Part shown: positions 21,026 to 49,823 of the stretch, one piece after another
Layout of the letters: each line of letters opens with the position of its first letter
Position numbering within the stretch: position 1 is the stretch's first letter
Source: a virus
Lineage: Duplodnaviria > Caudoviricetes
IMG/VR virus record: IMGVR_UViG_3300025789_000006
Location: 1 to 53,156 of that record
Strand: one strand, 5' to 3'
Length of the DNA: 53,156 nt
Position numbers and translations under genes: made by a program
Notes under the pieces: generated by a model
Told to the model about the DNA's origin: nothing
Database searches by the model: none
The model's input: the letters and a program-made list of their open reading frames with translations, nothing else

Positions 21026-22779
21026 ACTTCCCATCCTTCGTCATTTGATTTTTCTCTAGGCGCAGGCTCTTGTGGTTGGATATGCACCGTTCTGTTCTGC
21101 GGTATTGTCTCACCCAACTTAGGCTTGCCAGTCTTTGCCGATATCTCAGTGGTCGGCACACGGGCATACCTGCCGTCTTCTTTCTTCATCAACTGTGGAT
21201 CGTACTTCACAAAGAATCCGTTAGAGTCAATGTGAGCGTTGCCTTTCTCACCGATGGCCTTCTTGTTCTTAAGGCCCACGATCACGCCATGCTCGCCCTC
21301 AGGCTGAATGTCCAGTGGTCGGAAGTCATGGCTGTCACCGTTGATGACCTTGAACACTTTGCCAGTCTCATGATCAACGATCTGGTGGGGCAGATGCTCA
21401 TTGTGTGTGAAGGCCATCGCCACATTGTCGCCACCCTCCAACCGACGGCGCATCTGCTTCCAGTTGCTGTGTGGATTGTGGACATCTTGATCGCTCACAC
21501 CAGTGCTTGAGTAAGTGTAGTGGTGGTTGGGCGCGATGGGGTTGGTGTTGTTCTTGGTGTAGTCATAGAAGGTCACATCAGGGTGACCGTTGATGATGGC
21601 CTTGTGGACTCGTGGATTGATGTCCGACAGCACATTGAGGCGCACACCTAAGTGGTTGTTGTTCTGTGCCGCAATCGCTTTGGCGTCCTGAATCTCATCG
21701 TACAGCTTGACAGCAAACGAGTGAGGGTCGTTGATCATCGCCAAGGTCTTGTTGAGACTGTTCAGGCGTGGGCCCTTAAACTCTTCAAGGTTGGTACCGC
21801 CACCCAGTTTGAAGTAGTTGCCTGAGGTCTTGCCTAAGCACTCTTCCTTACACGATGCTGAGTTGGGGCAGGTGTTGAACTTGCCTTGACCAAACGCAGG
21901 AGCCAATGCCAGACCAGTCGTCTCGACACCGCGCCCATCGGGAAGCTTGATGGCCTCCTCGCCGCCCTTCTCAGACTTGATGAGCTTGGCGTTCTTGCCA
22001 AGCAAGTCCTTGGGCTTGTTGTCGCTTGTGCGGCCTACATGGTTGGACACCATCTCAGCGGCTCTCACGCTGTTCATCATGCGGTGATGTGCAGGCAGTG
22101 CCAAGTGATGAGCAATCGCCTCATCGAAGGCGCGAGCCAGACTGGCGATGCTTGGGCTACCGGCGTCATAGGGTGTGAAGCCATTGGGGGTCTTCACTGC
22201 ACCTTGAGTCGCAGGCATGATATTGAATACACGGCGCTTTGGTGGCTGACCACCATCACCCATGTGAGGAAAAGCATCACGGGCTTTCTTCTTCAGGAGC
22301 TCAAGTCGCATTGCACCACCTGAGGCCATGCCGGGCGCGGCTCCAGTGGCAGGTGCAGGAGGTGGGGCCATAGCCGCCAGAGCTTGGCCTTGAGGCGTCA
22401 TTTGAAGCATGTTGCCCATCTGTGCAGGAGCTCCACCGCTTGGGCCAGTGGGCGCGCCACCGGGAGCAGGAGGAGTGCCGGGCGTCGCACCGGGAGCACC
22501 GGGCTGACCGGGCTGAGGTTGACCGGGCACAGGTGCAGGGATTGGATTGAGTTGTTGACCGGGCTGTTGGGAGTTGGTGTCCACGCCACCGATTGGCATG
22601 CCTTTGTTGGTCGCTACGCCACCGATTGATGGGATGCCACCAATTGCTTTGGGGTTGGGGTTGACGAACATCTTGGGCTCCATGTCCAGAGCTTCATTCA
22701 CGCCGATGCTGTCCATGAGGTCGGGGTTTCTGTGCTGTGCCAGATTGACGCGCATCTGCGCTAGTGATGGGGTGTCCAT
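21022..22779 (-). CDS. Gp88-like (radical-SAM-related) protein with Pro/Gly-rich N-terminal leader
   Basis: CPNSASCKEEC (Cx5Cx3C), VRLNVLSDI, FYDYTK, YTYS, INGDSHDFRPLD and IVGLK motifs. Confidence 0.75.
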   Translation of the reverse strand: MDTPSLAQMRVNLAQHRNPDLMDSIGVNEALDMEPKMFVNPNPKAIGGIPSIGGVATNKGMPIGGVDTNSQQPGQQLNPIPAPVPGQPQPGQPGAPGATPGTPPAPGGAPTGPSGGAPAQMGNMLQMTPQGQALAAMAPPPAPATGAAPGMASGGAMRLELLKKKARDAFPHMGDGGQPPKRRVFNIMPATQGAVKTPNGFTPYDAGSPSIASLARAFDEAIAHHLALPAHHRMMNSVRAAEMVSNHVGRTSDNKPKDLLGKNAKLIKSEKGGEEAIKLPDGRGVETTGLALAPAFGQGKFNTCPNSASCKEECLGKTSGNYFKLGGGTNLEEFKGPRLNSLNKTLAMINDPHSFAVKLYDEIQDAKAIAAQNNNHLGVRLNVLSDINPRVHKAIINGHPDVTFYDYTKNNTNPIAPNHHYTYSSTGVSDQDVHNPHSNWKQMRRRLEGGDNVAMAFTHNEHLPHQIVDHETGKVFKVINGDSHDFRPLDIQPEGEHGVIVGLKNKKAIGEKGNAHIDSNGFFVKYDPQLMKKEDGRYARVPTTEISAKTGKPKLGETIPQNRTVHIQPQEPAPREKSNDEGWEV

Positions 22780-22809
22780 TATTCCTCCGATGATTTTCTA
22801 TCAATTATC

Positions 22810-23079
22810 CTATGCGGATTGCTTGCCGTCCACCGGCAATTGGGGCACCGGTTGTCCCCCTGACAGACTCCGAGACTCTCGCAACTCCTCTTGCTCTTTG
22901 CGCCACTTGATCCACTCACGCAGTTGTTGGACGGCGAGTTGCTCCCAGATTTCTGTGCGGTCTTGGACGCTGATCTCGAACCGGTTTTCGCAGACCGTGG
23001 TGCGCACTCCATCGAGGTGCATGACGCGTTTGTAGGTGCCATCTCGTTGTTCATAGTACAAGTAGTCTTCATCTGCCAT
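22810..23079 (-). CDS. Hypothetical protein
   Basis: 89 aa with AGGAG RBS, between terL and the Gp88-like gene. Confidence 0.65.
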   Translation of the reverse strand: MADEDYLYYEQRDGTYKRVMHLDGVRTTVCENRFEISVQDRTEIWEQLAVQQLREWIKWRKEQEELRESRSLSGGQPVPQLPVDGKQSA

Positions 23080-39134: not shown

Positions 39135-40331
39135 ATGAAACAAGTCATTCAAGAAGAGGGCTCGCGCCCAATCAAAATTTGGACTGACGATGTAGAAGGA
39201 GAGGCGCTAACTCAACTTAAGAATTTGGCGCGTCTACCTTTTATCAACCATCATGGCGTGGTTTGCATGCCTGATGTTCATGCAGGAAAAGGCTCTACCG
39301 TGGGCACTGTTATTGCCACCGAGAAAGCCATCATTCCTGCGGCTGTAGGTGTTGACATTGGTTGTGGCATGAATGCTGTCAGAACCTCATTAAAAGCTTC
39401 CGACTTGCCCGAATCCTTGAAAGATATTCGCGCCCAAATTGAGCGCGACATCCCGCTGGGTGCAGGTGGTCGTTTACAGCGAGATGAAGAGGTCAACAAT
39501 CGGTTAGGTCGCCTTCCTAAAACATCATTCAATCTTTGCGAAAACCTCAACGAGATTGCCGGTGATTACTGGAAAAAAGCCGCGCCCCAACTTGGCACAC
39601 TTGGATCAGGCAATCATTTCATTGAACTTTGCATTGATGAGAATCAAGATGTGTGGGTCATGCTTCACTCTGGCTCTCGTGGCATTGGCAACATGATTGG
39701 GTCGCACTACATCGAAAAAGCCAAGCGTCAAATGGAAAAATTCTTTATCAGCTTGCCTGATTCAGACTTGGCCTATTTGCCTGAGGACACTGAAGATTTC
39801 AATGACTACATGGAAGCCGTTCAGTGGGCGCAAGACTATGCTTTGGAAAATCGAAAGTTGATGATGGAAGTTGTTTTGGTAGCGCTCAAAAAGCATATTC
39901 CAAAAGAATTCACGATTACCCAAGAGGCGATCAATTGCCATCACAACTATGTCGAAAAGGAGCATCACTTTGGACGAAATCTCTGGGTTACCCGTAAAGG
40001 AGCTATTCGTGCGAGATCAGGAGACTTGGGAATTATTCCGGGTTCTATGGGTCAAAAATCGTATATTGTCCGTGGAAAAGGTGAGCTTCAATCCTATTGT
40101 TCTTGTTCGCATGGGGCAGGACGCAGTATGTCCAGAGCTGAGGCTAAAAGGCGTTTCAGCATTGATGACCTCATCAAGCAAACCGAAGGTGTCGAGTGCC
40201 GCAAAGATGCGTCAGTTATTGACGAAATTCCTAGTAGCTACAAAGACATTGATCAAGTCATGGCGAACCAAACAGACTTAGTCGAAGTGGTTCATATTCT
40301 CAAACAAGTCATGTGCGTCAAAGGAGCATAA
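39135..40331 (+). CDS. rtcB: RtcB RNA 3'-phosphate/5'-OH ligase
   Basis: MPDVHAGKG, VGVDIGCG, GTLGSGNHFIE, HSGSRG, CHHN, RKGA, IPGSMG and SCSHGAGR all present. Confidence 0.96.
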   Translation: MKQVIQEEGSRPIKIWTDDVEGEALTQLKNLARLPFINHHGVVCMPDVHAGKGSTVGTVIATEKAIIPAAVGVDIGCGMNAVRTSLKASDLPESLKDIRAQIERDIPLGAGGRLQRDEEVNNRLGRLPKTSFNLCENLNEIAGDYWKKAAPQLGTLGSGNHFIELCIDENQDVWVMLHSGSRGIGNMIGSHYIEKAKRQMEKFFISLPDSDLAYLPEDTEDFNDYMEAVQWAQDYALENRKLMMEVVLVALKKHIPKEFTITQEAINCHHNYVEKEHHFGRNLWVTRKGAIRARSGDLGIIPGSMGQKSYIVRGKGELQSYCSCSHGAGRSMSRAEAKRRFSIDDLIKQTEGVECRKDASVIDEIPSSYKDIDQVMANQTDLVEVVHILKQVMCVKGA

Positions 40332-41716: not shown

Positions 41717-43036
41717 CTACTTAGTCCAAGAGTCTGGTAAATGGCTCGCGCCCCACTTCTTGATTTCGGGCCAATTCTCATAAACATCATGCGCAAGGAC
41801 ACCGGCACCGGCTAACCCACCGGCAACGGCTGTCCCTGCCGCAATCTCAGGTGCCATAAGACCTGCCGCCGCAACCATAGGAGCGGCTTGTGCAAGACCG
41901 CCAAGCCCACTTACAGCGTGTTTGATGGCTCCAGTGGTGTCACCACCATGCCAAGCATCAGCGGCTTGTCCAAACTCATATGGAGCCGCTAGAGCCGCCG
42001 CAGGGCCACCATACTTCCTGATCAAGCGTCCACCGCTTTCCACGATGTCGCCAAGCATGGAACCCTTCGTCGCAATATTCTCAAGTCTTTGAGCGTTTGC
42101 AGGATTCATCTCTGCCGTGTTGGCGTTAAGGTTGCCCGTCTGTTGGGCTGACTTGCCAGTCAATCGGCTGACTTCTTTGCCTGTTGCTTGTGCGTTAGCT
42201 TTGGCGGCTTCCAACCGTTGAGTTGCGGCGTCACGCTGAGGCTGAATCTTGATCTCGGCCTTTGCCTTGGCGTCAGCCACCTTTTGCTCATAGGCAAGTT
42301 TGTCAGCCTCGGCTTTGTCCAATGCGGCTTGTTTGCGCTCCATCTGAGCCTTTTGCGCCGCAGGGTCAAGGGCCAACCCAGTCTCTTTCTCTATCGCTGT
42401 GCCGGGGGCAATTTCCTGAGTACGCAAAGAAGCCGCTTCATTCGCAGGAATGACGACTTTTTGTGTGTGCGACATGCTTGGAGAAGTTTTGTCAAATTCG
42501 TTTGGAACAAACTTGCCTTCATAGTTTTCTACTCCGGGGCCACCCTCGTGGCTGAATTCCAATTTGACCGGCTCCTTGGGTGGAGGCTCAGGCAGATCGG
42601 CAGGATCAATGTTCTTGTTCAGAGCTTCTTCGCTGTGCCAAAACTTGTGACCCAGTTCAGCTTCTGCCAATTCAGCCTCATTGGGCGCATGGTTCAAGAT
42701 AGCTTGATCAAGCGCTTTGTTGGTGTTGCGCACATTGATTGCATTGTTGCGAGCCGCATCAGGAATCATCGTTGCCTGATTGATTTTGTGAGCGGCATAG
42801 CCTGCGGCGCCACCACCCAAAACCTCACCAATGCCGGGGCCACCGCTAGGCGCCTGTTGATCTACTTTGATGGTGCCATAGTTCATCTCAGGCAAGCCTT
42901 TATAGCCTGCATCTGCGTTTCCTTGAGGCTCTTTGCGCACAACCTCTTCATTAGGCGCTAAGGCTTTTTTTTCCTCGCCATCTGCAGGAGTTTCTGCTCC
43001 ATAAATATCATTTAAGCCTGAAGAATACTTACCCAT
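41717..43036 (-). CDS. Internal virion (ejection) protein
   Basis: 439 aa, Ala-rich helical, Cys-free, with Gly/Ala hydrophobic segments; last gene of the late operon. Confidence 0.6.
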   Translation of the reverse strand: MGKYSSGLNDIYGAETPADGEEKKALAPNEEVVRKEPQGNADAGYKGLPEMNYGTIKVDQQAPSGGPGIGEVLGGGAAGYAAHKINQATMIPDAARNNAINVRNTNKALDQAILNHAPNEAELAEAELGHKFWHSEEALNKNIDPADLPEPPPKEPVKLEFSHEGGPGVENYEGKFVPNEFDKTSPSMSHTQKVVIPANEAASLRTQEIAPGTAIEKETGLALDPAAQKAQMERKQAALDKAEADKLAYEQKVADAKAKAEIKIQPQRDAATQRLEAAKANAQATGKEVSRLTGKSAQQTGNLNANTAEMNPANAQRLENIATKGSMLGDIVESGGRLIRKYGGPAAALAAPYEFGQAADAWHGGDTTGAIKHAVSGLGGLAQAAPMVAAAGLMAPEIAAGTAVAGGLAGAGVLAHDVYENWPEIKKWGASHLPDSWTK

Positions 43037-44999
43037 TGTTTGCCCCCTTCTTCTTAGCGGCAGTTTGTTCTCTAAATTTCTTTACTTCGTTTTCAAGAGC
43101 TTGGTTATAGTCATCAATGATGGACTGTTGGCTTTTGGCGCGTGATGCGTCATACAAAGGCACAGGTGATTTGGAATCCAATACAAAATCAGGGTGAGTG
43201 TTGGTAATCAATTTTTGATGATCCAAATACAAATCACGGTTCATGCGTTGAGCCAGATTTGATTGACGAATATACAAACGCGCGGCGGCAGGTGAAGTCT
43301 CAGGATGAGCACTTGCATCAGCCAAAATACCTAGTTCAGCATTGCGAGCGGTGCTTGGGCTTACACCTGCTGATTTTTGATTGTTTAATGCCATCTGCGC
43401 TAAATTGCGATATACCTCTTGCGCAAAAGGAACTACCTCAGCAGGCAAAGAAGCTTGAGCAATTTTTTGCAAATTAACGCCGACTTGAGCATTGAAGTCT
43501 GCCAAATTCACATTCACGCCACCTTGAACCAATTGAGCCAAGCCAGACAATAATCCCTTACCGCCAAAAATACCCATGACTTGATCAAAGCGCGGGTCTT
43601 GTGCTTCAGACTCTAAGTTACTGATAGGGCGCATTACATTGGCATGCACTTGATTGCTTCCAGTAGCATTCAGGCCATCAGCATATGTTTTGCCTTGACC
43701 ATTCAAATAAGCTTGCGTTTCTTTAATACCGGCTTCTTGATTAGTGTAAGGATTGATGGGCGATGCATCACGCCAATTGGAAACAATCACCTCGCGCTTG
43801 CTTGGCTGTTTGGTGGTGTCTTCAGGCTTCTTGACTTGAGCAGTTTGTGCAGGAGCCTGAGCACCAGTTGTGTCGCGCTCCCAATGGTTGGGGTCGTACT
43901 GTGAGCTCTTGGGGTTTGTAGCCCATGCAGGCTGATGCCAACCCTTGTCGTCCAAAAGTTTTTTCTGATCGTCTGTAAGCTTTTTAGTGTCGATGTCCAT
44001 TGCATCGCCAGACAAGTGTTTGCCACCATTTGCGGCAACAGGCAAACCTTGCTTGGTGTACCAATTGCCATTTGCATCTTGGTGATCTTTCAGCGCATCT
44101 TGCTCTTCTTGAGTGCGGATGTTGCTGATGATTGGAACGCCTGCCTTGTGCAATGCATAGACATCTTCGCTTGCGCGCGCGCCGTTGGGCAACACATAAA
44201 TGTTCTTTGTTTGTGGCTGTGCTTGAGGGGCAGGAGCCGCAGGAGGTACAGCAGAAGGCAATGTGCGACCTGCGTTGTCACCGCCAATGTTGGCCTCAAT
44301 GCCGCCCTTATTGGGAACAACTGCACCTTGACCTTCTTGTGCATTGACAGTCGGGCCTTTATCGCCACCGGCAACATTGTCAGGAATAACGCCAGAGCCG
44401 CCACCGCCTGCACCGCCACCGGTGCCACTATTTGCACCAGTTGGGTATTTCCCTGTGTCTGGCAGGCCCATCTCATTGAGCGGAGGCATGGGCTCTCCAC
44501 GCGCTTGGTAGTTTTGCTTAGTGATTGCGATGTTGTTTGCAACTTCAGCGGCTCTGCCTGACTGGGATTTCAAGAGCATCTCACCGCGCTTGGGTGACAA
44601 GTTTGTAATCTCTTGAATTTCAGCAGGCGTGAGTTGACGGTTCTCTGTCTTTGCTTTGGTGACAATGTCTGCCGCTTTGGCTTCGTTGCCCAACAGCATG
44701 TTGGTCTGAGCTTTTGTGAGCTCCAGTTGGCTGACAGGAATTTGGTTTTGACGCTTCTCTTCAACCCAATCACCCAAGGCATCAGATGCACTACCCAAGG
44801 AGGCCACAAAACCGCCTAATTGGGGCTTGGCAAAGCCTGCCGCTACCTTGAACCAGTTTGGATGGTCATAGCGGTGCTGTAGGGCTTCTATGGCCTTGGA
44901 TTGGGCATCTCTGAGCTCCTGCAGGCGATCAGTATCCGCACCATACAAGTTGGTGTTTGACAAATCCATTGCCTTGGCTAAACCGCCGATATCTGCCAT
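43029..44999 (-). CDS. Internal virion (ejection) protein with M15-like peptidase domain
   Basis: Start MADIGGL; SNIRTQEEQDAL...KHLSGDAMD...DPNHWE. Confidence 0.7.
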   Translation of the reverse strand: MADIGGLAKAMDLSNTNLYGADTDRLQELRDAQSKAIEALQHRYDHPNWFKVAAGFAKPQLGGFVASLGSASDALGDWVEEKRQNQIPVSQLELTKAQTNMLLGNEAKAADIVTKAKTENRQLTPAEIQEITNLSPKRGEMLLKSQSGRAAEVANNIAITKQNYQARGEPMPPLNEMGLPDTGKYPTGANSGTGGGAGGGGSGVIPDNVAGGDKGPTVNAQEGQGAVVPNKGGIEANIGGDNAGRTLPSAVPPAAPAPQAQPQTKNIYVLPNGARASEDVYALHKAGVPIISNIRTQEEQDALKDHQDANGNWYTKQGLPVAANGGKHLSGDAMDIDTKKLTDDQKKLLDDKGWHQPAWATNPKSSQYDPNHWERDTTGAQAPAQTAQVKKPEDTTKQPSKREVIVSNWRDASPINPYTNQEAGIKETQAYLNGQGKTYADGLNATGSNQVHANVMRPISNLESEAQDPRFDQVMGIFGGKGLLSGLAQLVQGGVNVNLADFNAQVGVNLQKIAQASLPAEVVPFAQEVYRNLAQMALNNQKSAGVSPSTARNAELGILADASAHPETSPAAARLYIRQSNLAQRMNRDLYLDHQKLITNTHPDFVLDSKSPVPLYDASRAKSQQSIIDDYNQALENEVKKFREQTAAKKKGANNG

Positions 45000-46621
45000 T
45001 ATTTTCTCCCACCGGGCAAGCCGCCAAGATGACGAGTTGACCTGCATCCAATACTGCCACCGCCTTTAGCGCTTACTAAACCACCTTCAGCGCAACCTTT
45101 GAACCAACATTTGACATCGCACAAAAGGTTAGAACAGCATGCAATACCTTTAATGAGTCCGGCACCTGCCGCCAATCCAGACAGAGGTGACATGCACATC
45201 GTTGTCTTGACACTGGTAGGAATCTGCGCGCCCTGCAACAAGCTTGAAAGCTTGGACAAGGTCGTGAATGGATAGCATTGTTGGTTTTGCTTGATGGTCT
45301 GGCATTGAGCACCCAGAGTCGCCAAAGCGTTGATACAAGCCAGATTCTGACCTGCCGCTTGTACGCCAAGAGAACCCATGCCTTGACCTGCCGCTGTGAG
45401 CGCGCGAGCCTGTTCTGCCGCCATCGTTCCGGCTGTTTGGCCTGCCTGCAGATTGGCTGTGTTGAAGCCCTGTTGAGCATTTGCCGCAGTAGAGCCCAAG
45501 TTTGCCGCAATTTGATTTGCCGCAGTTTGCTGTTGGCCCAAAGTGCCACCGGCGTTGATCAAGTTTTGCATCTGAGATGCAGTCAATTGACCTGTAGTGC
45601 CACCCAAAGTACCCAACAAGTTTTGTTGTTGTTGAGCCAATGAACCTGCAGTTTGACCTGCTTGCAACGCTGTAGATGCGCACTTTGCCGCCAAGCAACC
45701 AGTGGTGCCTGCCAAGCCTGCAAGCAAGCTTTGTTGCTGTTCGCCCAATGTACCGGCAGTCTGACCAAGCCCTGCGCAAATCTGTTGTTTCTGGCCTGCG
45801 GCAGTAAGAGCTTGACCGTAGCCTTGGTTTTCCATGTTGGCGATCTGACTGTTCAAGCATTGCATTGCGTTGGCCTCAACTTGGCCCAACACTTGAGCAC
45901 CACGCTGAGAACCAAATTGACCTGAGCCAACAGCCGCCGCAGTGGCTTGAGGAGCCAAATTCTGCTGAATGTTGCGGTTAGCAATGTCTGACATGTTTTG
46001 CACAGCAGACTGCAAATAAGGGCTCATGTAAGACTGAGCCAACTGAGCAGTGCAAGTGCCTGATACTTTGTTCAAGTAAGGCTGTGCCGCGCATAAACCG
46101 CCTCTTGAAGCGGCCTTGCAAATCAATCCTTGTGCTGTGCCTAAAATGTTTGTACCAAGAGCTTTGCTCAAATCAGGTTGAGCCGCGCATAGACCACCTT
46201 TAGCCGCCGCTTGTTGAATGTATGGGCTCGCCGCACCTGCCGCACACAATGCTGTGCCTTTGGCAATGTCAGGAGTTGCCGCCTGCACACCAGTGGTAGC
46301 CATGGCCTGATTGGCATATGGCTGAAGGGTTGACAGTGGGTTGGTGCTCGTGCCTGCGGTCAGGAAAGGAGCCGCAGAACCGGTGATGTTCTGTTTAGCC
46401 GCGCATCCCAACAAATTTTGAGCAGTTGCAAAGTTGCCCTGTTGGGCTCCAAAGTTTGTCGCGGCCTTACAAAAAGCCTCTTGTTGCAGGGGTTGAGCCC
46501 CTACGAACTGTGCGCCACACTGTGCCTGCTGACCTTTGGTTGCTAGGTTTTGAAGGTAGTTCGTGTAATACGACGGCGCACAGGTCGATTTATTTTGTGA
46601 GGACTGTAGTAAGTTTGCCAT
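44999..46621 (-). CDS. Gln/Ala/Gly-rich internal virion (ejection) protein, Cys-substituted
   Basis: 540 aa with YMSPY and GQFGSQRG DNA-transfer-like motifs, 23 scattered Cys and a terminal CAEGG. Confidence 0.7.
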   Translation of the reverse strand: MANLLQSSQNKSTCAPSYYTNYLQNLATKGQQAQCGAQFVGAQPLQQEAFCKAATNFGAQQGNFATAQNLLGCAAKQNITGSAAPFLTAGTSTNPLSTLQPYANQAMATTGVQAATPDIAKGTALCAAGAASPYIQQAAAKGGLCAAQPDLSKALGTNILGTAQGLICKAASRGGLCAAQPYLNKVSGTCTAQLAQSYMSPYLQSAVQNMSDIANRNIQQNLAPQATAAAVGSGQFGSQRGAQVLGQVEANAMQCLNSQIANMENQGYGQALTAAGQKQQICAGLGQTAGTLGEQQQSLLAGLAGTTGCLAAKCASTALQAGQTAGSLAQQQQNLLGTLGGTTGQLTASQMQNLINAGGTLGQQQTAANQIAANLGSTAANAQQGFNTANLQAGQTAGTMAAEQARALTAAGQGMGSLGVQAAGQNLACINALATLGAQCQTIKQNQQCYPFTTLSKLSSLLQGAQIPTSVKTTMCMSPLSGLAAGAGLIKGIACCSNLLCDVKCWFKGCAEGGLVSAKGGGSIGCRSTRHLGGLPGGRK

Positions 46622-46624
46622 GAT

Positions 46625-49207
46625 TTACTTCGTTCCCTTTTTTATGTAATCAAGGGGAGACTTAGCCTTCGGTGGAATCTTAGACAGAGGAGCGTTGCGC
46701 TTATGAGCTCGCAACTTTTCACGCATGCCGTCCAAAATTTCTGCCCCTCGCTTATTATCTCCTTGTCCAAGCGCCGTGACAAACGCCGCAGGGAAGACAT
46801 ACTCGCCGTCAGCAATCTTGGCAGGCACAGGATTGGCTCCTGCAACGCCACCATCTGCATGACGATGTACGCGGTGAGGCACCTTGGTTCTAAAGCCATC
46901 AAGCACCTGCTTACCGGCCTTGCTTGAACCGTCGCCCAGTGCAGATACTGTCTCAGCATCCATCACATAGTCGCCGTCGTGAAGCATGGCAGGAATGTCG
47001 TCAGACTGTCCAGTACCACCACCGCAAGCGTAATACCCGGTCACACCAGTGATGAACTCAGGGTGGTGACCTTTGGGTGTTGCGCTATGGTAAGCCGCAG
47101 GCAATCCACCGCCTTCAGCATGGCCTGTGATGCCTTGATAAATGTGAGACAAGGGCGCATTGGTAAAATGTTGGCCTGAACCGCGATTCACCAAAATCTC
47201 AGGTTGACTGCATGCGAACTTTGGTTCGTATTTTGAAATGTCAAAAGCGTCATTTTTGGATTTTGTAGCCTCAGCAGTGGCGTCTTTAATGGCTTGAATC
47301 TTTTTGCAGATGCAAGTTTCTTCAGAGTCTTCAGTGCCACCACCAGAGAAATGATGGACTTGACCACCAGAGGCCAGACAGCCATATCCCAAACCTTTAT
47401 CAGGAGAGATTTGGCAGGCCATCACGCGCTGATTGACAGTGCCCAAAAGATTGCTTGAATCGCCAACTGCATTGGTAGTCAACTTAGCCAAGTTAGCAAT
47501 TTTGGCCTTACCACCACTTGCGGCATGGAACAAACCACCCTCGGCAAGGCAACCGTAGCCAAGACCTTTGCAAGGTGAAATTTGACATGCGGCAACTTTG
47601 CCGCTTGCGTTGCTCAAGCCACCAATGTTTTCACCGATGTTGCCAGTACCAAGCTTGGCAAGTTCAAGCGCTTTCTTAGCGCCACCGGCCTTCAATAGGT
47701 TGGCAACACCGCATAAGGCTGATGGGCCACCTTGACCTTTAGCAGAACCTTGAGCAGGCTTCTTGACAGGCTTGTGTTTTGCAGGCTTTTTGCCTGTTGG
47801 GCCTTTTGATTTCTTAGGCTTGCACTTGTCTGTACAGCAACATTGATCGCAACAGCAAGTGTCACAGCAACAAGTGTCGCAACAGCACATGTCGCAACAG
47901 CAGGTGTCGCAACAGCACATATCACAGCAACACATATCACAGCAACATGTATCGCAACAGCAAGTATCGCAACAGCAGGTATCACAGCATGCACAGCAAT
48001 CTGTACAGCAGGTATCACAGCAAGCTGTACAGCAATCTGTACAACAAGTCGTGCAATCGCATCCACAGCATGAAACACAGCAACCTACACAGCAACCCTC
48101 AGGGGTGCAGTCAGAAGAACATGGAGTTTCACAGCTTGGGGTGCAACCGCAAGGCAAGCAAGGTTCGCATGGTGTGCAGGTATTGCATGGAGCGCAGGGA
48201 TCAACACAGCATGGCAAGCATGTACAAGTAGTGCAAGTTGGGATGCAAGATGCACAGGTACAGCAGAAGCAAGGCACACAGCAGAATGGCGAGCAAACGC
48301 CGCATGCTAGGCCACCACTGCAGAATGTTGGGGTGCAGAAATTAGTTGTGCAAACACCGGGTGTGCAGGCGCCGGGTGTGCAAAGGCTTGGCATACAGCC
48401 TGTTGGAAGGCAAGTCGTGCCGGGCTGTGTGATGCAAGTTTGACCGGGGTTATAGCCTTTGTCACAGCAAATTGGTTGACAAACATCACATCCGGTTTGT
48501 GCGCATGGGCCAGAAATACAAGAGGTGTTGGGTTGGGTTATACATTGCTGACCGGGGCCATAACCCTTATCACAGCAACATACGCCGCATGTGCAAGGCA
48601 AACATCCGCATGCAGGCCCTTCAATACATGTTGTAGGTGTACACATGGGGGTGCAGGCGCATGCCATGCAAACACCACAAGGCTGACCAATGCATGTGCC
48701 GGGGTTACCTATGCAAGTGCCGGGATTGTATGGATTGTGACCGCAGTCAAAACTGCATCCAGAGGTGCAAACGCATGAACAGCATTCCATGCAACCTGCA
48801 CAGCACAAACCGCTTTGGTTTGTTGATCCAATGCATTGTTCACAGCCGCCGTAACAAGTATTGCAGGTATTGGCACATTCTCCAGTACCGCAATTATCTC
48901 CAACACAAGAAATACAAGATTCACATCCTACAGCGCAAGCGACGCATCCTGCCGAGCACAGGAAACAGGCAACACTGTCTACCGCGCATACTGCGCAAGC
49001 CGCATCACCTAAAACGCACAAGAAGCTTGTTGCGCCACCCGTGGCGACATCCAAGGCCAAGCTTGCAAGGGCTCCAATACCGCCGCCACCACCATAATGA
49101 TGAGCGACTTGACCGCAATTCAGAATGTCATCTGCTTGAGGTTGTGGGTCGTGTAATTGCGCGCCCTGATTGCGATTGCTATAACCGCCAAAAATTATTT
49201 TGCTCAT
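46625..49207 (-). CDS. Ultra-Cys-rich internal virion protein with C-terminal GD/GE-Y-V domain pair
   Basis: 860 aa with about 140 Cys; C-terminal GTGQSDDIPAMLHDGDYVM and IADGEYVFPA; coupled to both neighbours. Confidence 0.8.
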   Translation of the reverse strand: MSKIIFGGYSNRNQGAQLHDPQPQADDILNCGQVAHHYGGGGGIGALASLALDVATGGATSFLCVLGDAACAVCAVDSVACFLCSAGCVACAVGCESCISCVGDNCGTGECANTCNTCYGGCEQCIGSTNQSGLCCAGCMECCSCVCTSGCSFDCGHNPYNPGTCIGNPGTCIGQPCGVCMACACTPMCTPTTCIEGPACGCLPCTCGVCCCDKGYGPGQQCITQPNTSCISGPCAQTGCDVCQPICCDKGYNPGQTCITQPGTTCLPTGCMPSLCTPGACTPGVCTTNFCTPTFCSGGLACGVCSPFCCVPCFCCTCASCIPTCTTCTCLPCCVDPCAPCNTCTPCEPCLPCGCTPSCETPCSSDCTPEGCCVGCCVSCCGCDCTTCCTDCCTACCDTCCTDCCACCDTCCCDTCCCDTCCCDMCCCDMCCCDTCCCDMCCCDTCCCDTCCCDQCCCTDKCKPKKSKGPTGKKPAKHKPVKKPAQGSAKGQGGPSALCGVANLLKAGGAKKALELAKLGTGNIGENIGGLSNASGKVAACQISPCKGLGYGCLAEGGLFHAASGGKAKIANLAKLTTNAVGDSSNLLGTVNQRVMACQISPDKGLGYGCLASGGQVHHFSGGGTEDSEETCICKKIQAIKDATAEATKSKNDAFDISKYEPKFACSQPEILVNRGSGQHFTNAPLSHIYQGITGHAEGGGLPAAYHSATPKGHHPEFITGVTGYYACGGGTGQSDDIPAMLHDGDYVMDAETVSALGDGSSKAGKQVLDGFRTKVPHRVHRHADGGVAGANPVPAKIADGEYVFPAAFVTALGQGDNKRGAEILDGMREKLRAHKRNAPLSKIPPKAKSPLDYIKKGTK
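47834..47983 (-). repeat. Ten 15-bp tandem repeats encoding D-[TMQ]-C-C-C
   Basis: Direct reading; synonymous TGT/TGC and GAT/GAC variation between copies. Confidence 0.92.
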
Positions 49208-49575
49208 AATTTAATCATCCAGTTATAACCTGCGCGATCAGATTCCTTTACAGGAACATTTATCTGTCTACCAAGTCGTCTAAGTAAATTGATAATCCCG
49301 CCGTTGTCGGCTTTGCCGTACAAACGATGGATGCCGCGTCGCTCGATATTTCTAAAGAATCGAACCAATGTTCGAGCCAGAACGACGGGTGGGTCTTGTG
49401 TGAAAAGGTGGGCAGAAAATTCGCCGGGTGCGATCTTTTCCAAGAGAAGCGAGGTCTTGCCGCCGTGTAAAAGAATGCCGCCATCTTTGACGGTTTTGGC
49501 AACCGCGCCCATGACGAGATTGTGATCCAAGCCCCTTTGCTTGGAGTCGTGTGTTATGACTTCTGACGGTTTCAT
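49204..49575 (-). CDS. Small tail/ejection-region protein (possible GNAT-like fold)
   Basis: Start MKPSEVI; same position as T7 gp13/P22 gp14-type genes. The fold call rests on position only. Confidence 0.45.
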   Translation of the reverse strand: MKPSEVITHDSKQRGLDHNLVMGAVAKTVKDGGILLHGGKTSLLLEKIAPGEFSAHLFTQDPPVVLARTLVRFFRNIERRGIHRLYGKADNGGIINLLRRLGRQINVPVKESDRAGYNWMIKL

Positions 49576-49823
49576 TAAAAGTTCTCCTGTACTGGTGTGA
49601 CAGACATGATCCCTGTCATAGCCATTGCCCATTCTTGCCAGTTCGCATAACTTCTATGGTCTGGCACCCCAGACTGGACAAAATATCCAATCCCATTTAA
49701 TCCATCTACCCACTGCCTCCAGTTTTCTTCGGGCACATGGCCCAACTGGTTTGACGCAAACAGCTCTTCCATCAGTTTGTTGTACTGATCCCAAGTCATT
49801 CCTCGTGGGTCATAACTTATCAT
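49575..49823 (-). CDS. Small Trp-rich tail-region protein
   Basis: YDPRGMTWDQY...WQEWA, coupled to the nozzle gene. Confidence 0.7.
   Translation of the reverse strand: MISYDPRGMTWDQYNKLMEELFASNQLGHVPEENWRQWVDGLNGIGYFVQSGVPDHRSYANWQEWAMAMTGIMSVTPVQENF

What the first reader, a model, noticed from the sequence alone, without database searches (positions are those of the whole stretch)
47815..49120. Ultra-cysteine-rich, metallothionein/keratin-associated-like region in a phage ejection-protein slot
Seen: about 130 Cys in the first ~465 aa (about 28%). Density rises along the chain from CxxC to CC to ten perfect D-x-C-C-C repeats, followed by a Lys/Pro linker. Synonymous variation within the repeats and coupled start/stop codons argue for a real gene. 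Known: podoviral ejection proteins are usually Cys-poor because they unfold during exit. Possible roles (inference): a Zn/Cd/Cu/Fe sink inside the head, a redox-switched disulfide matrix, a thiol buffer protecting packaged DNA, or a scaffold for thiol modification.
Basis: partly seen in the sequence, partly recalled or inferred. Interest (0 to 1): 0.87.

Follow-up and report, generated by a model that had tools for sequence, protein, structure and literature searches.

The report
Cysteine-packed phage ejection-slot protein family
A freshwater phage gene in the slot for proteins injected with the DNA encodes a chain that is nearly one-third cysteine over 415 residues, a selection-maintained trait shared by many uncultured relatives whose chemistry (disulfide rivets or metal clusters) is still untested.

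Summary
The minus-strand ORF 46625-49207 (860 aa) has 131 Cys in its first 465 residues. Cys density rises to 54% in aa 372-465. Ten D-x-C-C-C units are followed by a Lys/Pro linker. The sequence is reproduced in contigs of other runs, so it is not an assembly artefact. The Cys are under purifying selection (dN/dS about 0.08 in the CC/CCC tract).

The protein is not unique. Its C-terminal domain defines a family of at least 2512 proteins of uncultured phages. These phages are related to Riverwalk-type Caulobacter phages and, distantly, to HTVC023P-type podoviruses. The central region of family members ranges from 0% to about 30% Cys.

The gene is the first of a coupled block downstream of the tail genes, the ejection-protein position. 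The next gene's Cys content follows it, and the third gene is Cys-free almost everywhere. Neighbouring genes stay at about 0.6% Cys.

No fold, Pfam family or outside homologue was found for the Cys part.

Best reading (about 0.4): a thiol cross-linking module that staples proteins 1 and 2 in the internal core. Main rival: metallothionein-like metal clusters. I rate it a new variant of a known kind, of moderately high interest.

The parts
46625..49207 (-). Whole gene ('protein 1'): 860 aa with 141 Cys
   Evidence: ORF list. Composition. The C-terminal part has at least 2512 homologues.
49028..49207 (-). N-terminal segment aa 1-60, conserved among the Cys-rich orthologues and ending in a Gly run
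   Evidence: Alignment A2 of 22 orthologues. dN/dS is 0.17-0.20 against L004 and L005.
47813..49057 (-). Cys-rich region aa 51-465: 130 Cys (31%), 33 D+E against 5 K+R, no Trp, 1 His
   Evidence: AF2 pLDDT is about 33-40 with no secondary structure. No Pfam family at E<=1.
48362..48577 (-). Two copies of a roughly 36-aa unit that begins C-C-D-K-G-Y (aa 211-282)
   Evidence: Self-comparison. The unit also recurs in L004 and L005.
47813..48094 (-). CC/CCC tract aa 372-465: 51 Cys in 94 residues (54%) with D/T spacers
   Evidence: dN/dS is 0.08-0.09 with dS about 0.9-1.0 against L004 and L005.
47834..47983 (-). Ten D-x-C-C-C units (aa 409-458)
   Evidence: TRF gives period 15, 9.2 copies and 80% matches.
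47693..47833 (-). Basic Lys/Pro linker aa 459-505
   Evidence: A comparable basic stretch follows the poly-Cys tract in P0001, P0006, P0010, P0021 and P0024.
47108..47692 (-). Middle part aa 506-700, moderately conserved. It has a twice-repeated motif G-C-L-A-x-G-G that also ends protein 2
   Evidence: Sequence. C-termini of protein 2 orthologues. AF2 confidence here is low.
46628..47107 (-). Highly conserved C-terminal domain aa ~701-860: two copies of a beta-hairpin plus helices carrying a G-T-G-x-S-D ... D-G-[DE]-Y-V motif
   Evidence: Alignment A1 has 61 invariant columns in 46 sequences. AF2 pLDDT is 80-90 over aa ~709-839. No PDB fold match. There is a weak motif match to the tape measure protein of mycobacteriophage Douge.
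49204..49632 (-). Upstream coupled gene (142-aa ORF; relatives are mostly 120-124 aa, so the start is probably at nt 49575). Family of unknown function
   Evidence: It is present in 23 of 25 assessable Cys-rich loci and 10 of 42 Cys-poor loci. This association is confounded by phylogeny.
44999..46621 (-). 'Protein 2': 540 aa with 23 Cys (4.3%). Orthologues carry a poly-Cys cluster near the C-terminus
   Evidence: Its Cys% follows that of protein 1.
43029..45047 (-). 'Protein 3': 672-aa ORF with 0 Cys
   Evidence: Orthologues have 0 Cys in 61 of 65 loci.
41717..43036 (-). 'Protein 4': 439 aa with 0 Cys. It is not homologous to the transglycosylase at the same position in MW202545
49820..53085 (-). 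Upstream tail genes: a 672-aa virion structural protein and a 415-aa tail fibre protein
   Evidence: PHROG hits phrog_3287 (E 2e-24) and phrog_12796 (E 9e-12).

Best explanation
SHOWN
- The gene is real and encodes a selection-maintained protein of a complete 53-kb freshwater phage.
- It has four parts: a conserved N-terminus; a hypervariable central region, here 415 residues at 31% Cys and polarised towards a terminal CC/CCC tract; a basic Lys/Pro linker; and a very conserved C-terminal domain.
- Cys-richness is a recurrent lineage trait of this protein and of the next gene's product. It does not extend to the rest of the proteome.

INFERRED, position: the protein is the first of three or four internal virion (ejection) proteins, packed on the portal axis inside the head.

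INFERRED, mechanism
- The conserved C-terminal domain brings the copies into register.
- The adjacent poly-Cys tracts of protein 1 and protein 2 then cross-link through thiol chemistry.
- The cross-links are most likely inter-chain disulfides that form once the virion leaves the reducing cytoplasm for oxic water. A metal-thiolate intermediate is possible.
- This would rivet the internal core or plug into a stiff, protease-resistant body.
- The basic linker next to the tract contacts packaged DNA.
- Co-packaged proteins 3 and 4 carry no Cys, so they would stay free of the network.
- How the cross-linked module is handled at infection (ejected as compact beads, reduced on reaching the cytoplasm, or left behind) is not known.
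For: Real gene under selection
- In the CC/CCC tract dN/dS is 0.08-0.09 at dS about 0.9-1.0.
- 88 of 106 and 97 of 114 aligned window Cys are Cys in L004 and L005. Only 90 of 221 and 101 of 235 non-Cys positions are identical.

Family trait
- Among 82 loci, protein 1 has at least 7% Cys in 26, at least 15% in 8, and 0 Cys in 19.
- The architecture is conserved: rising Cys density, a terminal CC/CCC tract, then a basic linker.

Coupling with protein 2
- Spearman rho is 0.89 over 79 loci, while the neighbouring genes stay at 0.6-0.7% Cys (rho -0.18).
- On a tree of the neighbouring structural gene (62 loci) the rich state changes at least 8 times. Protein 2 follows in 6.7 of 8 independent pairs and never goes the opposite way (median sign-test p 0.016).
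- Protein 2 carries its own poly-Cys cluster just before a conserved C-terminal motif that also occurs in protein 1.

All-or-nothing pattern
- Proteins 1 and 2 both have 0 Cys in 17 loci. One example is a 2003-aa protein 1 without a single Cys.
- Protein 3 has 0 Cys in 61 of 65 loci.
- This suggests that stray thiols are harmful in the compartment these proteins share.

Position
- The synteny is tail fibre, 672-aa virion protein, small genes, then proteins 1-4, with overlapping stop and start codons.
- The fourth gene of MW202545 matches lytic transglycosylase models.
- Relatives by portal include HTVC023P and HTVC027P, which resemble podoviruses in morphology.

Precedent
- In cyanopodophage A4 the cryo-EM pre-ejectosome shows a disulfide between two ejection proteins (gp27 Cys1715 and gp26 Cys5). 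Arg/Lys residues of these proteins line a circle of packaged DNA (PMC12002296, passages read).
Against: - No virion proteomics or structure exists for any member, so presence in the head rests on gene order alone.
- No homology to T7, P22 or A4 ejection proteins was detected.
- No peptidoglycan hydrolase domain was found in the window's own block.
- Adjacent Cys (CCC) cannot bond with each other easily. A heavily disulfide-bonded mass is hard to reconcile with passage through a narrow tail channel.
- The Asp-rich spacers would raise thiol pKa and slow oxidation (established chemistry, my inference).
- The composition fits metal-thiolate proteins as well as it fits disulfide proteins.
- The co-variation of proteins 1 and 2 could come from joint transfer of two adjacent genes rather than from functional coupling (a caveat).
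- AF2 gives no structure for the Cys region, so nothing structural supports in-register pairing.
Confidence: 0.4

Rival explanations
1. Metallothionein-like metal-thiolate domain. The Cys region is disordered when metal-free and folds around Zn(II), Cu(I), Cd(II) or Fe clusters. It would carry tens of metal ions per chain inside the head, for compaction, for stabilisation, or as cargo delivered to the host.
For: - The region is 31% Cys, dominated by C-x-x-C, C-C and C-x-C spacings.
- It has 11 aromatic residues and 1 His in 415 residues.
- AF2 predicts no fold without a ligand, as expected for a metal-free thionein (recalled knowledge).
- Small metal-thiolate beads could pass a tail channel without full unfolding (inference).
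Against: - No sequence match to any metallothionein Pfam family (0 families at E<=1).
- The spacers are Asp/Thr, not the Lys/Ser typical of metallothioneins (recalled). Extra negative charge next to anionic clusters is unfavourable.
- Metal binding gives no obvious reason for the all-or-nothing Cys pattern, for the Cys-free proteins 3 and 4, or for the co-variation with protein 2.
- No metal chaperone or transporter was recognised in the phage, but only part of its ORFs were scanned.
Confidence: 0.25
2. Tolerated low-complexity expansion. The central region is a length spacer whose composition drifts by replication slippage, and Cys-richness has no chemical function of its own.
For: - The central region is hypervariable in length (protein 1 ranges from about 400 to 2003 aa) and in composition: Gly/Ala, Pro/Thr, acidic T-S-D-L-D repeats, or Cys.
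- The DNA of the tract is a period-15 repeat.
Against: - dN/dS is 0.08-0.09 with many synonymous changes, and Cys is kept far better than other residues.
- The DNA repeat is only 80% identical while the peptide repeat is nearly perfect.
- A conserved polar architecture recurs across distant members.
- Cys content is coupled with protein 2.
Confidence: 0.07
3. Sacrificial thiol buffer. The thiols act as an antioxidant reservoir inside the head that protects DNA or proteins from oxidants in sunlit fresh water.
For: - One protein holds a very high number of thiols: 141 of the 324 Cys in the whole proteome.
- The runs that hold the sequence are freshwater metagenomes.
Against: - A buffer needs no conserved architecture, no polarity and no partner protein.
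- A one-shot reservoir is a weak defence.
- Many related freshwater phages, such as Caulobacter phage GB2A, have 0 Cys.
Confidence: 0.05
4. Lipid anchor in the manner of cysteine-string proteins. The poly-Cys tract next to a polybasic stretch is S-acylated or otherwise lipid-modified and drives membrane insertion of the ejected protein.
For: - A poly-Cys tract directly followed by a Lys-rich stretch resembles eukaryotic membrane-targeting strings (recalled, not tested).
- Some relatives carry a 371-aa gene, annotated as 3-oxoacyl-ACP synthase in MW202545, two genes upstream.
Against: - The window has no such gene and no HlyC-type acyltransferase.
- No bacterial S-palmitoylation machinery is known (recalled).
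- The acyl-synthase-like gene occurs in Cys-poor loci too, for example L045 and L057-L059.
Confidence: 0.04
5. Artefact: mis-assembly of a simple repeat, or a non-coding stretch that reads open by chance.
For: - The repeated TGY codons create long shadow ORFs on the other strand, for example 47859-48443 on the plus strand.
Against: - Contigs of other runs are identical across the tract.
- The frame runs uninterrupted into a domain with at least 2512 homologues.
- Orthologues share the same architecture.
- Purifying selection acts in this frame.
Confidence: 0.01

Closest known systems
Podovirus ejection / internal virion proteins (pre-ejectosome), e.g. cyanopodophage A4 gp26-gp29, T7 gp14-16, P22 gp7/20/16
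   Same: - The gene position is the same: a coupled block of three or four large genes after the tail genes.
- A relative has a lytic transglycosylase in the block.
- A4 shows an inter-protein disulfide and basic residues holding DNA in the pre-ejectosome (PMC12002296).
   Different: - No detectable sequence or fold homology.
- A4 uses one disulfide per pair, whereas this protein has 130 Cys in 415 residues.
- Virion location was not shown for this family.
- The gene orders of T7 and P22 are recalled, not taken from a call.
Metallothioneins
   Same: About 30% Cys, with C-C, C-x-C and C-x-x-C spacings, almost no aromatic residues or His, and no predicted fold without a ligand.
   Different: - It is a 415-residue module inside an 860-aa structural protein, not a small free protein.
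- The spacers are Asp/Thr.
- The tract reaches 54% Cys.
- No Pfam metallothionein match.
- Metal binding is untested.
Ultra-high-sulfur keratin-associated proteins
   Same: More than 30% Cys arranged in pentapeptide repeats containing CC. The presumed role is as an inter-chain disulfide cross-linker of a partner protein (the properties of these proteins are recalled).
   Different: No homology. The origin is viral, not animal. The repeat is D-x-C-C-C rather than C-C-x-P-x. Cross-linking is untested.
Tail tape measure proteins (annotation given to the Caulobacter phage GB2A orthologue)
   Same: - The two share a roughly 35-residue motif. It occurs twice in the C-terminal domain and twice in gp16 of mycobacteriophage Douge.
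- There are weak PHROG hits to tape-measure families.
- Both have a long, variable, low-complexity body.
   Different: - The hits are weak and cover the motif only.
- Related cultured phages resemble podoviruses.
- No tail tube or sheath gene was recognised among the ORFs scanned.
- In Douge the motif region is not resolved in the structure; only residues 1658-1699 are.

Membership tests
Metallothionein | Very high Cys content with C-C, C-x-C and C-x-x-C motifs | tested here: met
   130 Cys in 415 residues. Gaps between successive Cys are 0 (37 times), 1 (12 times) and 2 (41 times).
Metallothionein | Few or no aromatic residues and His | tested here: met
   7 Phe, 4 Tyr, 0 Trp and 1 His in 415 residues.
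Metallothionein | Small, free-standing protein | tested here: not met
   It is a 415-residue region of an 860-aa protein with a conserved non-Cys C-terminal domain.
Metallothionein | Sequence membership of a curated metallothionein family | tested here: not met
   hmmscan of aa 51-465 against Pfam-A found 0 families at E<=1. HMMER's filters drop many weak or biased matches.
Metallothionein | Binds metal ions in thiolate clusters | not testable with these tools
   Needs ICP-MS or spectroscopy on virions or on recombinant protein.
Keratin-associated (ultra-high-sulfur) proteins | More than 30% Cys in short CC-containing repeats | tested here: met
   31% overall and 54% in aa 372-465, with ten D-x-C-C-C units. 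The family definition is recalled.
Keratin-associated (ultra-high-sulfur) proteins | Sequence homology to the family | tested here: not met
   No Pfam family at E<=1. The profile of the Cys part found only 4 proteins among 1.84 billion representatives, none of them named.
Podovirus ejection / internal virion proteins | Encoded in a block of large genes after the tail genes, together with a cell-wall hydrolase | tested here: inconclusive
   The gene order fits. A transglycosylase is present in the block of MW202545. No M15 or SLT hit was found in the window itself.
Podovirus ejection / internal virion proteins | Present inside the mature head and released at infection | not testable with these tools
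   No proteomics or structure for any member was found in the papers read. Supplements were not opened.
Podovirus ejection / internal virion proteins | Sequence or fold homology to characterised ejection proteins | tested here: inconclusive
   No PDB sequence hit. Foldseek's best E-value was 1.2. VIA-align's best Z was 2.8. BFVD returned only uncharacterised phage proteins.
Tail tape measure protein | Homology beyond a short motif | tested here: not met
   phrog_6090 gives E 2.8e-5 over aa 716-773 only. The hit to Douge gp16 has E 8.5e-4 over 37 residues.
Tail tape measure protein | Long-tailed phage with tail tube genes | tested here: inconclusive
   No tail tube or sheath hit among the 20 large ORFs scanned. 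Distant cultured relatives resemble podoviruses. The morphology of this phage is unknown.

The most novel reading that the evidence does not exclude
The poly-Cys modules of proteins 1 and 2 form a redox- or metal-switched lock of the phage's internal core. The thiols are reduced, or zinc-loaded, at assembly. They oxidise into an inter-chain cystine network in oxic fresh water and clamp the genome end through the basic linker. The lock opens only when the leading end meets the host's reducing cytoplasm. This would be a thiol-gated genome release mechanism not described for any phage. It would have evolved repeatedly in an abundant uncultured podovirus group, while sister lineages purge every Cys from the same proteins.
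Probability: 0.15. Interest if true: 0.85.

Novelty: new variant of a known kind. Interest (0 to 1): 0.62.

Why it matters
Proteins that leave the head through the tail channel are expected to avoid cysteine, and this family shows both extremes. Some lineages have not one Cys in up to 2003 residues. Others have up to about 30% Cys, kept by strong purifying selection and matched in the neighbouring protein. This points to thiol chemistry inside the virion or in the periplasm as a selectable property of the DNA-delivery machinery.

Five full-text literature searches found no description of such a property beyond a single disulfide in cyanophage A4.

The phages belong to a large uncultured freshwater group related to some of the most abundant marine phages. 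If the module is a cross-linker or a metal store, it bears on virion stability, decay in oxic water and trace-metal or sulfur budgets. It also offers a natural poly-Cys scaffold for materials work.

The claim can be tested directly with recombinant fragments and, once a host is found, with virions.

Tried and rejected
Family and fold searches that gave nothing for the Cys region
- Pfam at E<=0.01 and at E<=1, and NCBIfam.
- PHROGs, which hit only a C-terminal motif.
- ESM Atlas: no usable feature hit, its own model has pLDDT 0.38, and structure rows have TM<=0.32.
- AF2 on aa 1-520 with 22 orthologues: mean pLDDT 38.8.

C-terminal domain
- Its AF2 model is good over aa ~709-839.
- Foldseek against the PDB found nothing at E<=0.001.
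- VIA-align wide gave a best Z of 2.8.
- BFVD returned only uncharacterised phage proteins.

Searches for the Cys tract elsewhere
- A word-based search with aa 300-465 returned only P0004 and P0005, out of 56 candidates in the length range 473-1505 aa.
- The profile of the Cys part against 1.84 billion representatives gave 4 hits. Two are family members and two are unrelated Cys-repeat proteins.

Helper or modification enzymes in the window
- HMMs for HlyC, DUF2824, peptidase M15_4, M15_3, SLT, thioredoxin, glutaredoxin, DsbA and radical SAM all gave no match.
- By eye, protein 3 has a stretch that reminded me of LAS/M15 peptidases. The HMMs did not support this, so I dropped it.

The upstream 142-aa gene
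- It has no Pfam, PHROG or PDB relative. The Atlas's nearest named cluster (DUF2824, score 0.92) is a lead only.
- Its association with Cys-rich loci may be phylogenetic, because it also occurs in loci with 0 Cys (L076, L079).
- Complex prediction of this protein with aa 1-120 of protein 1 returned no verdict.

Other dead ends
- Expression: no RNA holder was listed among the 24 runs.
- PDB sequence searches with proteins 3 and 4 gave no hit.
- megablast of 12 kb of the window against the phage collection gave no match.
- Literature: searches returned 0 papers. Searches returned nothing relevant by title or abstract. led to the A4 paper.
- Supplements of papers were not opened. Virion proteomics tables, if any exist for HTVC023P, CRP-901 or the Riverwalk phages, could bear on the virion-location claim.
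- Habitat comparison of Cys-rich and Cys-free lineages was not attempted, because the records are unnamed samples.

Rows dropped before counts
- One search uses 79 of 82 loci, those where both proteins were found as separate ORFs.
- One search uses 62 loci with near-full-length genes.
- One search sets aside 7 loci with less than 600 bases upstream of protein 1.


Full report
**1. The observation**

The window is a complete virus record of 53156 bases with direct terminal repeats. The minus-strand ORF 46625-49207 encodes 860 residues. It has 141 Cys, of which 131 lie in the first 465 residues (28.2%) and 130 in aa 51-465 (31.3%).

Cys density rises along the chain: 23%, 21%, 34% and 54% in aa 51-200, 201-300, 301-371 and 372-465. 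Ten D-x-C-C-C units occupy aa 409-458. Their codons differ, and the DNA repeat is only 80% self-identical (period 15, 9.2 copies). A basic linker follows, with 12 K/R and 6 P in 47 residues.

The remaining ORFs of the phage hold 183 Cys in 15875 residues (1.15%), so chance is excluded (binomial tail about 1e-137).

The start codon overlaps the stop codon of the upstream ORF. The whole chain of seven genes, from the 672-aa virion protein to the 439-aa ORF, is joined by overlaps or gaps of a few bases, if the internal Met starts suggested by homologue lengths are used.

Contigs assembled from other runs reproduce the tract without a difference. X20 has 1259 bases across 47818-49076. The runs are all freshwater metagenomes of 2017, and X1 may be the source sample.

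**2. Which phage and which slot**

PHROG scans identify the large terminase, portal and a major head protein. They also identify tail fibre proteins and a 672-aa virion structural protein just upstream of the gene.

The portal is 77% identical to that of the uncultured phage MW202545 and 46% identical to the Riverwalk-type Caulobacter phages RW, RLK, KcrB and GB2A. It is 34% identical to Roseobacter phages CRP-901 and CRP-902, and 31% identical to Pelagibacter phages HTVC027P and HTVC023P. The last two are said to resemble podoviruses in morphology (preprint 10.1101/2019.12.14.876532, passages).

The gene order in 82 related loci is conserved:
- tail fibre;
- a roughly 672-aa virion protein;
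- a roughly 80-aa gene;
- an optional roughly 143-aa gene;
- protein 1 (this gene), protein 2 and protein 3.

In MW202545 the fourth gene matches lytic transglycosylase models (E 4e-13). In the window's own block I could recognise no hydrolase.

The ejection-protein slot is therefore a reasonable inference from position. It is not demonstrated. The GB2A orthologue is annotated as a tape measure protein. That label rests on a short motif shared with siphophage tape measure proteins.

**3. The family**

A search with aa 520-860 found at least 2512 proteins. The last roughly 160 residues are extremely conserved, with 61 invariant columns in 46 sequences. They fold with good confidence into two copies of a beta-hairpin plus helices. 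This fold has no relative in the PDB.

The part upstream of this domain is hypervariable. In 82 loci, protein 1 ranges up to 2003 residues. It may be Gly/Ala-rich, Pro/Thr-rich, built of acidic repeats, or Cys-rich.

Protein 1 has at least 7% Cys in 26 loci and at least 15% in 8 loci. The extremes are 148 Cys in 665 aa (L027) and 130 in 602 (L026). It has no Cys at all in 19 loci.

The Cys-rich members share an architecture: a conserved N-terminus, rising Cys density, a terminal CC/CCC tract, then a basic linker. The window's protein is thus a typical, not the most extreme, member of a widespread trait.

Outside the family nothing similar was found by words or by profile.

**4. Selection**

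I compared the window with its closest relatives L004 and L005, whose C-terminal parts are 93% identical. The CC/CCC tract has dN/dS of 0.08-0.09 at dS about 0.9-1.0. This is as constrained as the C-terminal domain (0.095).

Of the window's aligned Cys, 83-85% are Cys in the relatives. Identity at other positions of the region is 41-43%. dS in the more divergent part of the region is saturated and the alignment there is uncertain, so only the tract figure is firm.

**5. Coupling with the neighbours**

Protein 2 (window 44999-46621; 23 Cys, 4.3%) tracks protein 1. Spearman rho is 0.89 over 79 loci. The other genes of the same loci stay at 0.6-0.7% Cys whatever protein 1 does (rho -0.18).

In 17 loci both proteins have no Cys at all. 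Protein 3 has none in 61 of 65 loci, and proteins 3 and 4 of the window have none.

In the Cys-bearing lineages protein 2 ends with its own poly-Cys cluster. One example is a run of C-S-C-C-C units in MW202545. The cluster comes just before a conserved C-terminal motif that also occurs twice in the middle of protein 1.

I built a tree of the neighbouring structural gene for 62 loci. On it the Cys-rich state of protein 1 changes at least 8 times. In 8 independent pairs protein 2 goes the same way in 6.7 on average and never the other way (median p 0.016). The two genes are adjacent, so joint transfer as a cassette could produce this result without functional coupling.

**6. What it most likely does**

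Three things need explaining together:
- strong selection for Cys in a polar, low-complexity module next to an oligomerising domain;
- the matching cluster in the next protein;
- the all-or-nothing distribution, with complete avoidance of Cys in the co-packaged proteins.

I think this points to thiol cross-linking between copies of proteins 1 and 2 in the internal core. Disulfides would form after release into oxic water.

A structural precedent exists on a small scale. The pre-ejectosome of the freshwater cyanopodophage A4 has a disulfide between two ejection proteins, and basic residues that hold a circle of DNA (PMC12002296, passages). The Lys/Pro linker here could play the DNA-binding part.

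I put this reading at about 0.4. The metallothionein-like reading (about 0.25) fits the composition equally well and eases the problem of passing a narrow channel. It explains the family-wide pattern less well. Both chemistries may operate in sequence.

The neutral-spacer, antioxidant, lipid-anchor and artefact readings are less likely, for the reasons given under the rival explanations.

**7. Comparison with known systems and novelty**

By composition the region meets the descriptive criteria of metallothioneins and of ultra-high-sulfur keratin-associated proteins. It fails their size and homology criteria. By position it behaves like a podovirus ejection protein, but without detectable homology.

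Five full-text searches found no description of Cys-rich ejection or internal virion proteins. The papers on the cultured relatives do not mention cysteine in the text I searched. Their supplements were not opened.

I classify it as a new variant of a known kind: an internal virion protein carrying an undescribed poly-Cys module. Interest is moderately high because the trait is real, selected, recurrent and directly testable. Its mechanism remains inferred.

**8. Limits**

- No structure prediction supports any arrangement of the Cys region.
- The complex prediction gave no verdict.
- No RNA run was listed.
- ORFs in related loci were called by my own simple script, and a few are truncated by contig ends.
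- Loci are not phylogenetically independent. Only 73 of the 82 protein 1 sequences are distinct.

Noticed in passing
window 49204-49632 (-): The roughly 123-142-aa gene coupled to the start of the Cys-rich gene belongs to a family of unknown function. Two subfamilies are linked by hhalign at 94% probability. The gene is present in 23 of 25 assessable Cys-rich loci, 5 of 8 intermediate loci and 10 of 42 Cys-poor loci. It could be an assembly helper, or the pattern could be only a phylogenetic marker.
   Followed up: partly
L001 6299-7243 (+) and the same position in L029, L030, L032, L045-L047, L049, L050, L052, L057-L059: A roughly 371-aa gene, annotated as 3-oxoacyl-ACP synthase in MW202545, and a roughly 110-aa gene sit inside the structural operon just upstream of the 143-aa gene. 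This is an odd place for a fatty-acid-type enzyme. The window lacks it.
   Followed up: no
L001 9610-10848 (+), and C-termini of protein 2 in L046, L047, L050, L052, L055, L011, L015: Protein 2 orthologues carry their own poly-Cys runs near the C-terminus, with up to 5-7 consecutive Cys. The runs come directly before a conserved terminal motif.
   Followed up: partly
window 39135-40331 (+): The phage encodes a full-length RtcB RNA ligase (Pfam PF01139, E 2e-131). It lies on the strand opposite to most genes, next to two unassigned ORFs.
   Followed up: no
window 22779-23072 (-): A 97-aa ORF next to the large terminase has 8 Cys (8.2%) and no Pfam match at E<=1. It may be a small zinc-binding protein or the small terminase.
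   Followed up: no
window 47859-48443 (+) and 47692-48078 (-): Long shadow ORFs over the Cys tract, such as a Gln/Ser/Val-rich 194-aa frame on the plus strand, are by-products of the repeated TGY codons. They should not be annotated as genes.
   Followed up: partly
protein P0176 (1255 aa): An unrelated large protein, possibly a phage tail protein judging by its look, ends in about 35 tandem four-residue units of the form C-x-x-x. This is another Cys-periodic tail on a large metagenomic protein.
   Followed up: no
L082 2514-8525 (+), L064, L051: Protein 1 varies about five-fold in length among relatives, up to 2003 aa with no Cys. This is as expected if the central region is a length-setting or space-filling element.
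   Followed up: no
window 47606-47889 and 49075-49232, run X22: One run holds contigs of a second, about 90-95% similar strain beside the identical one. Differences cluster in the linker and the N-terminal flank of the gene.
   Followed up: no
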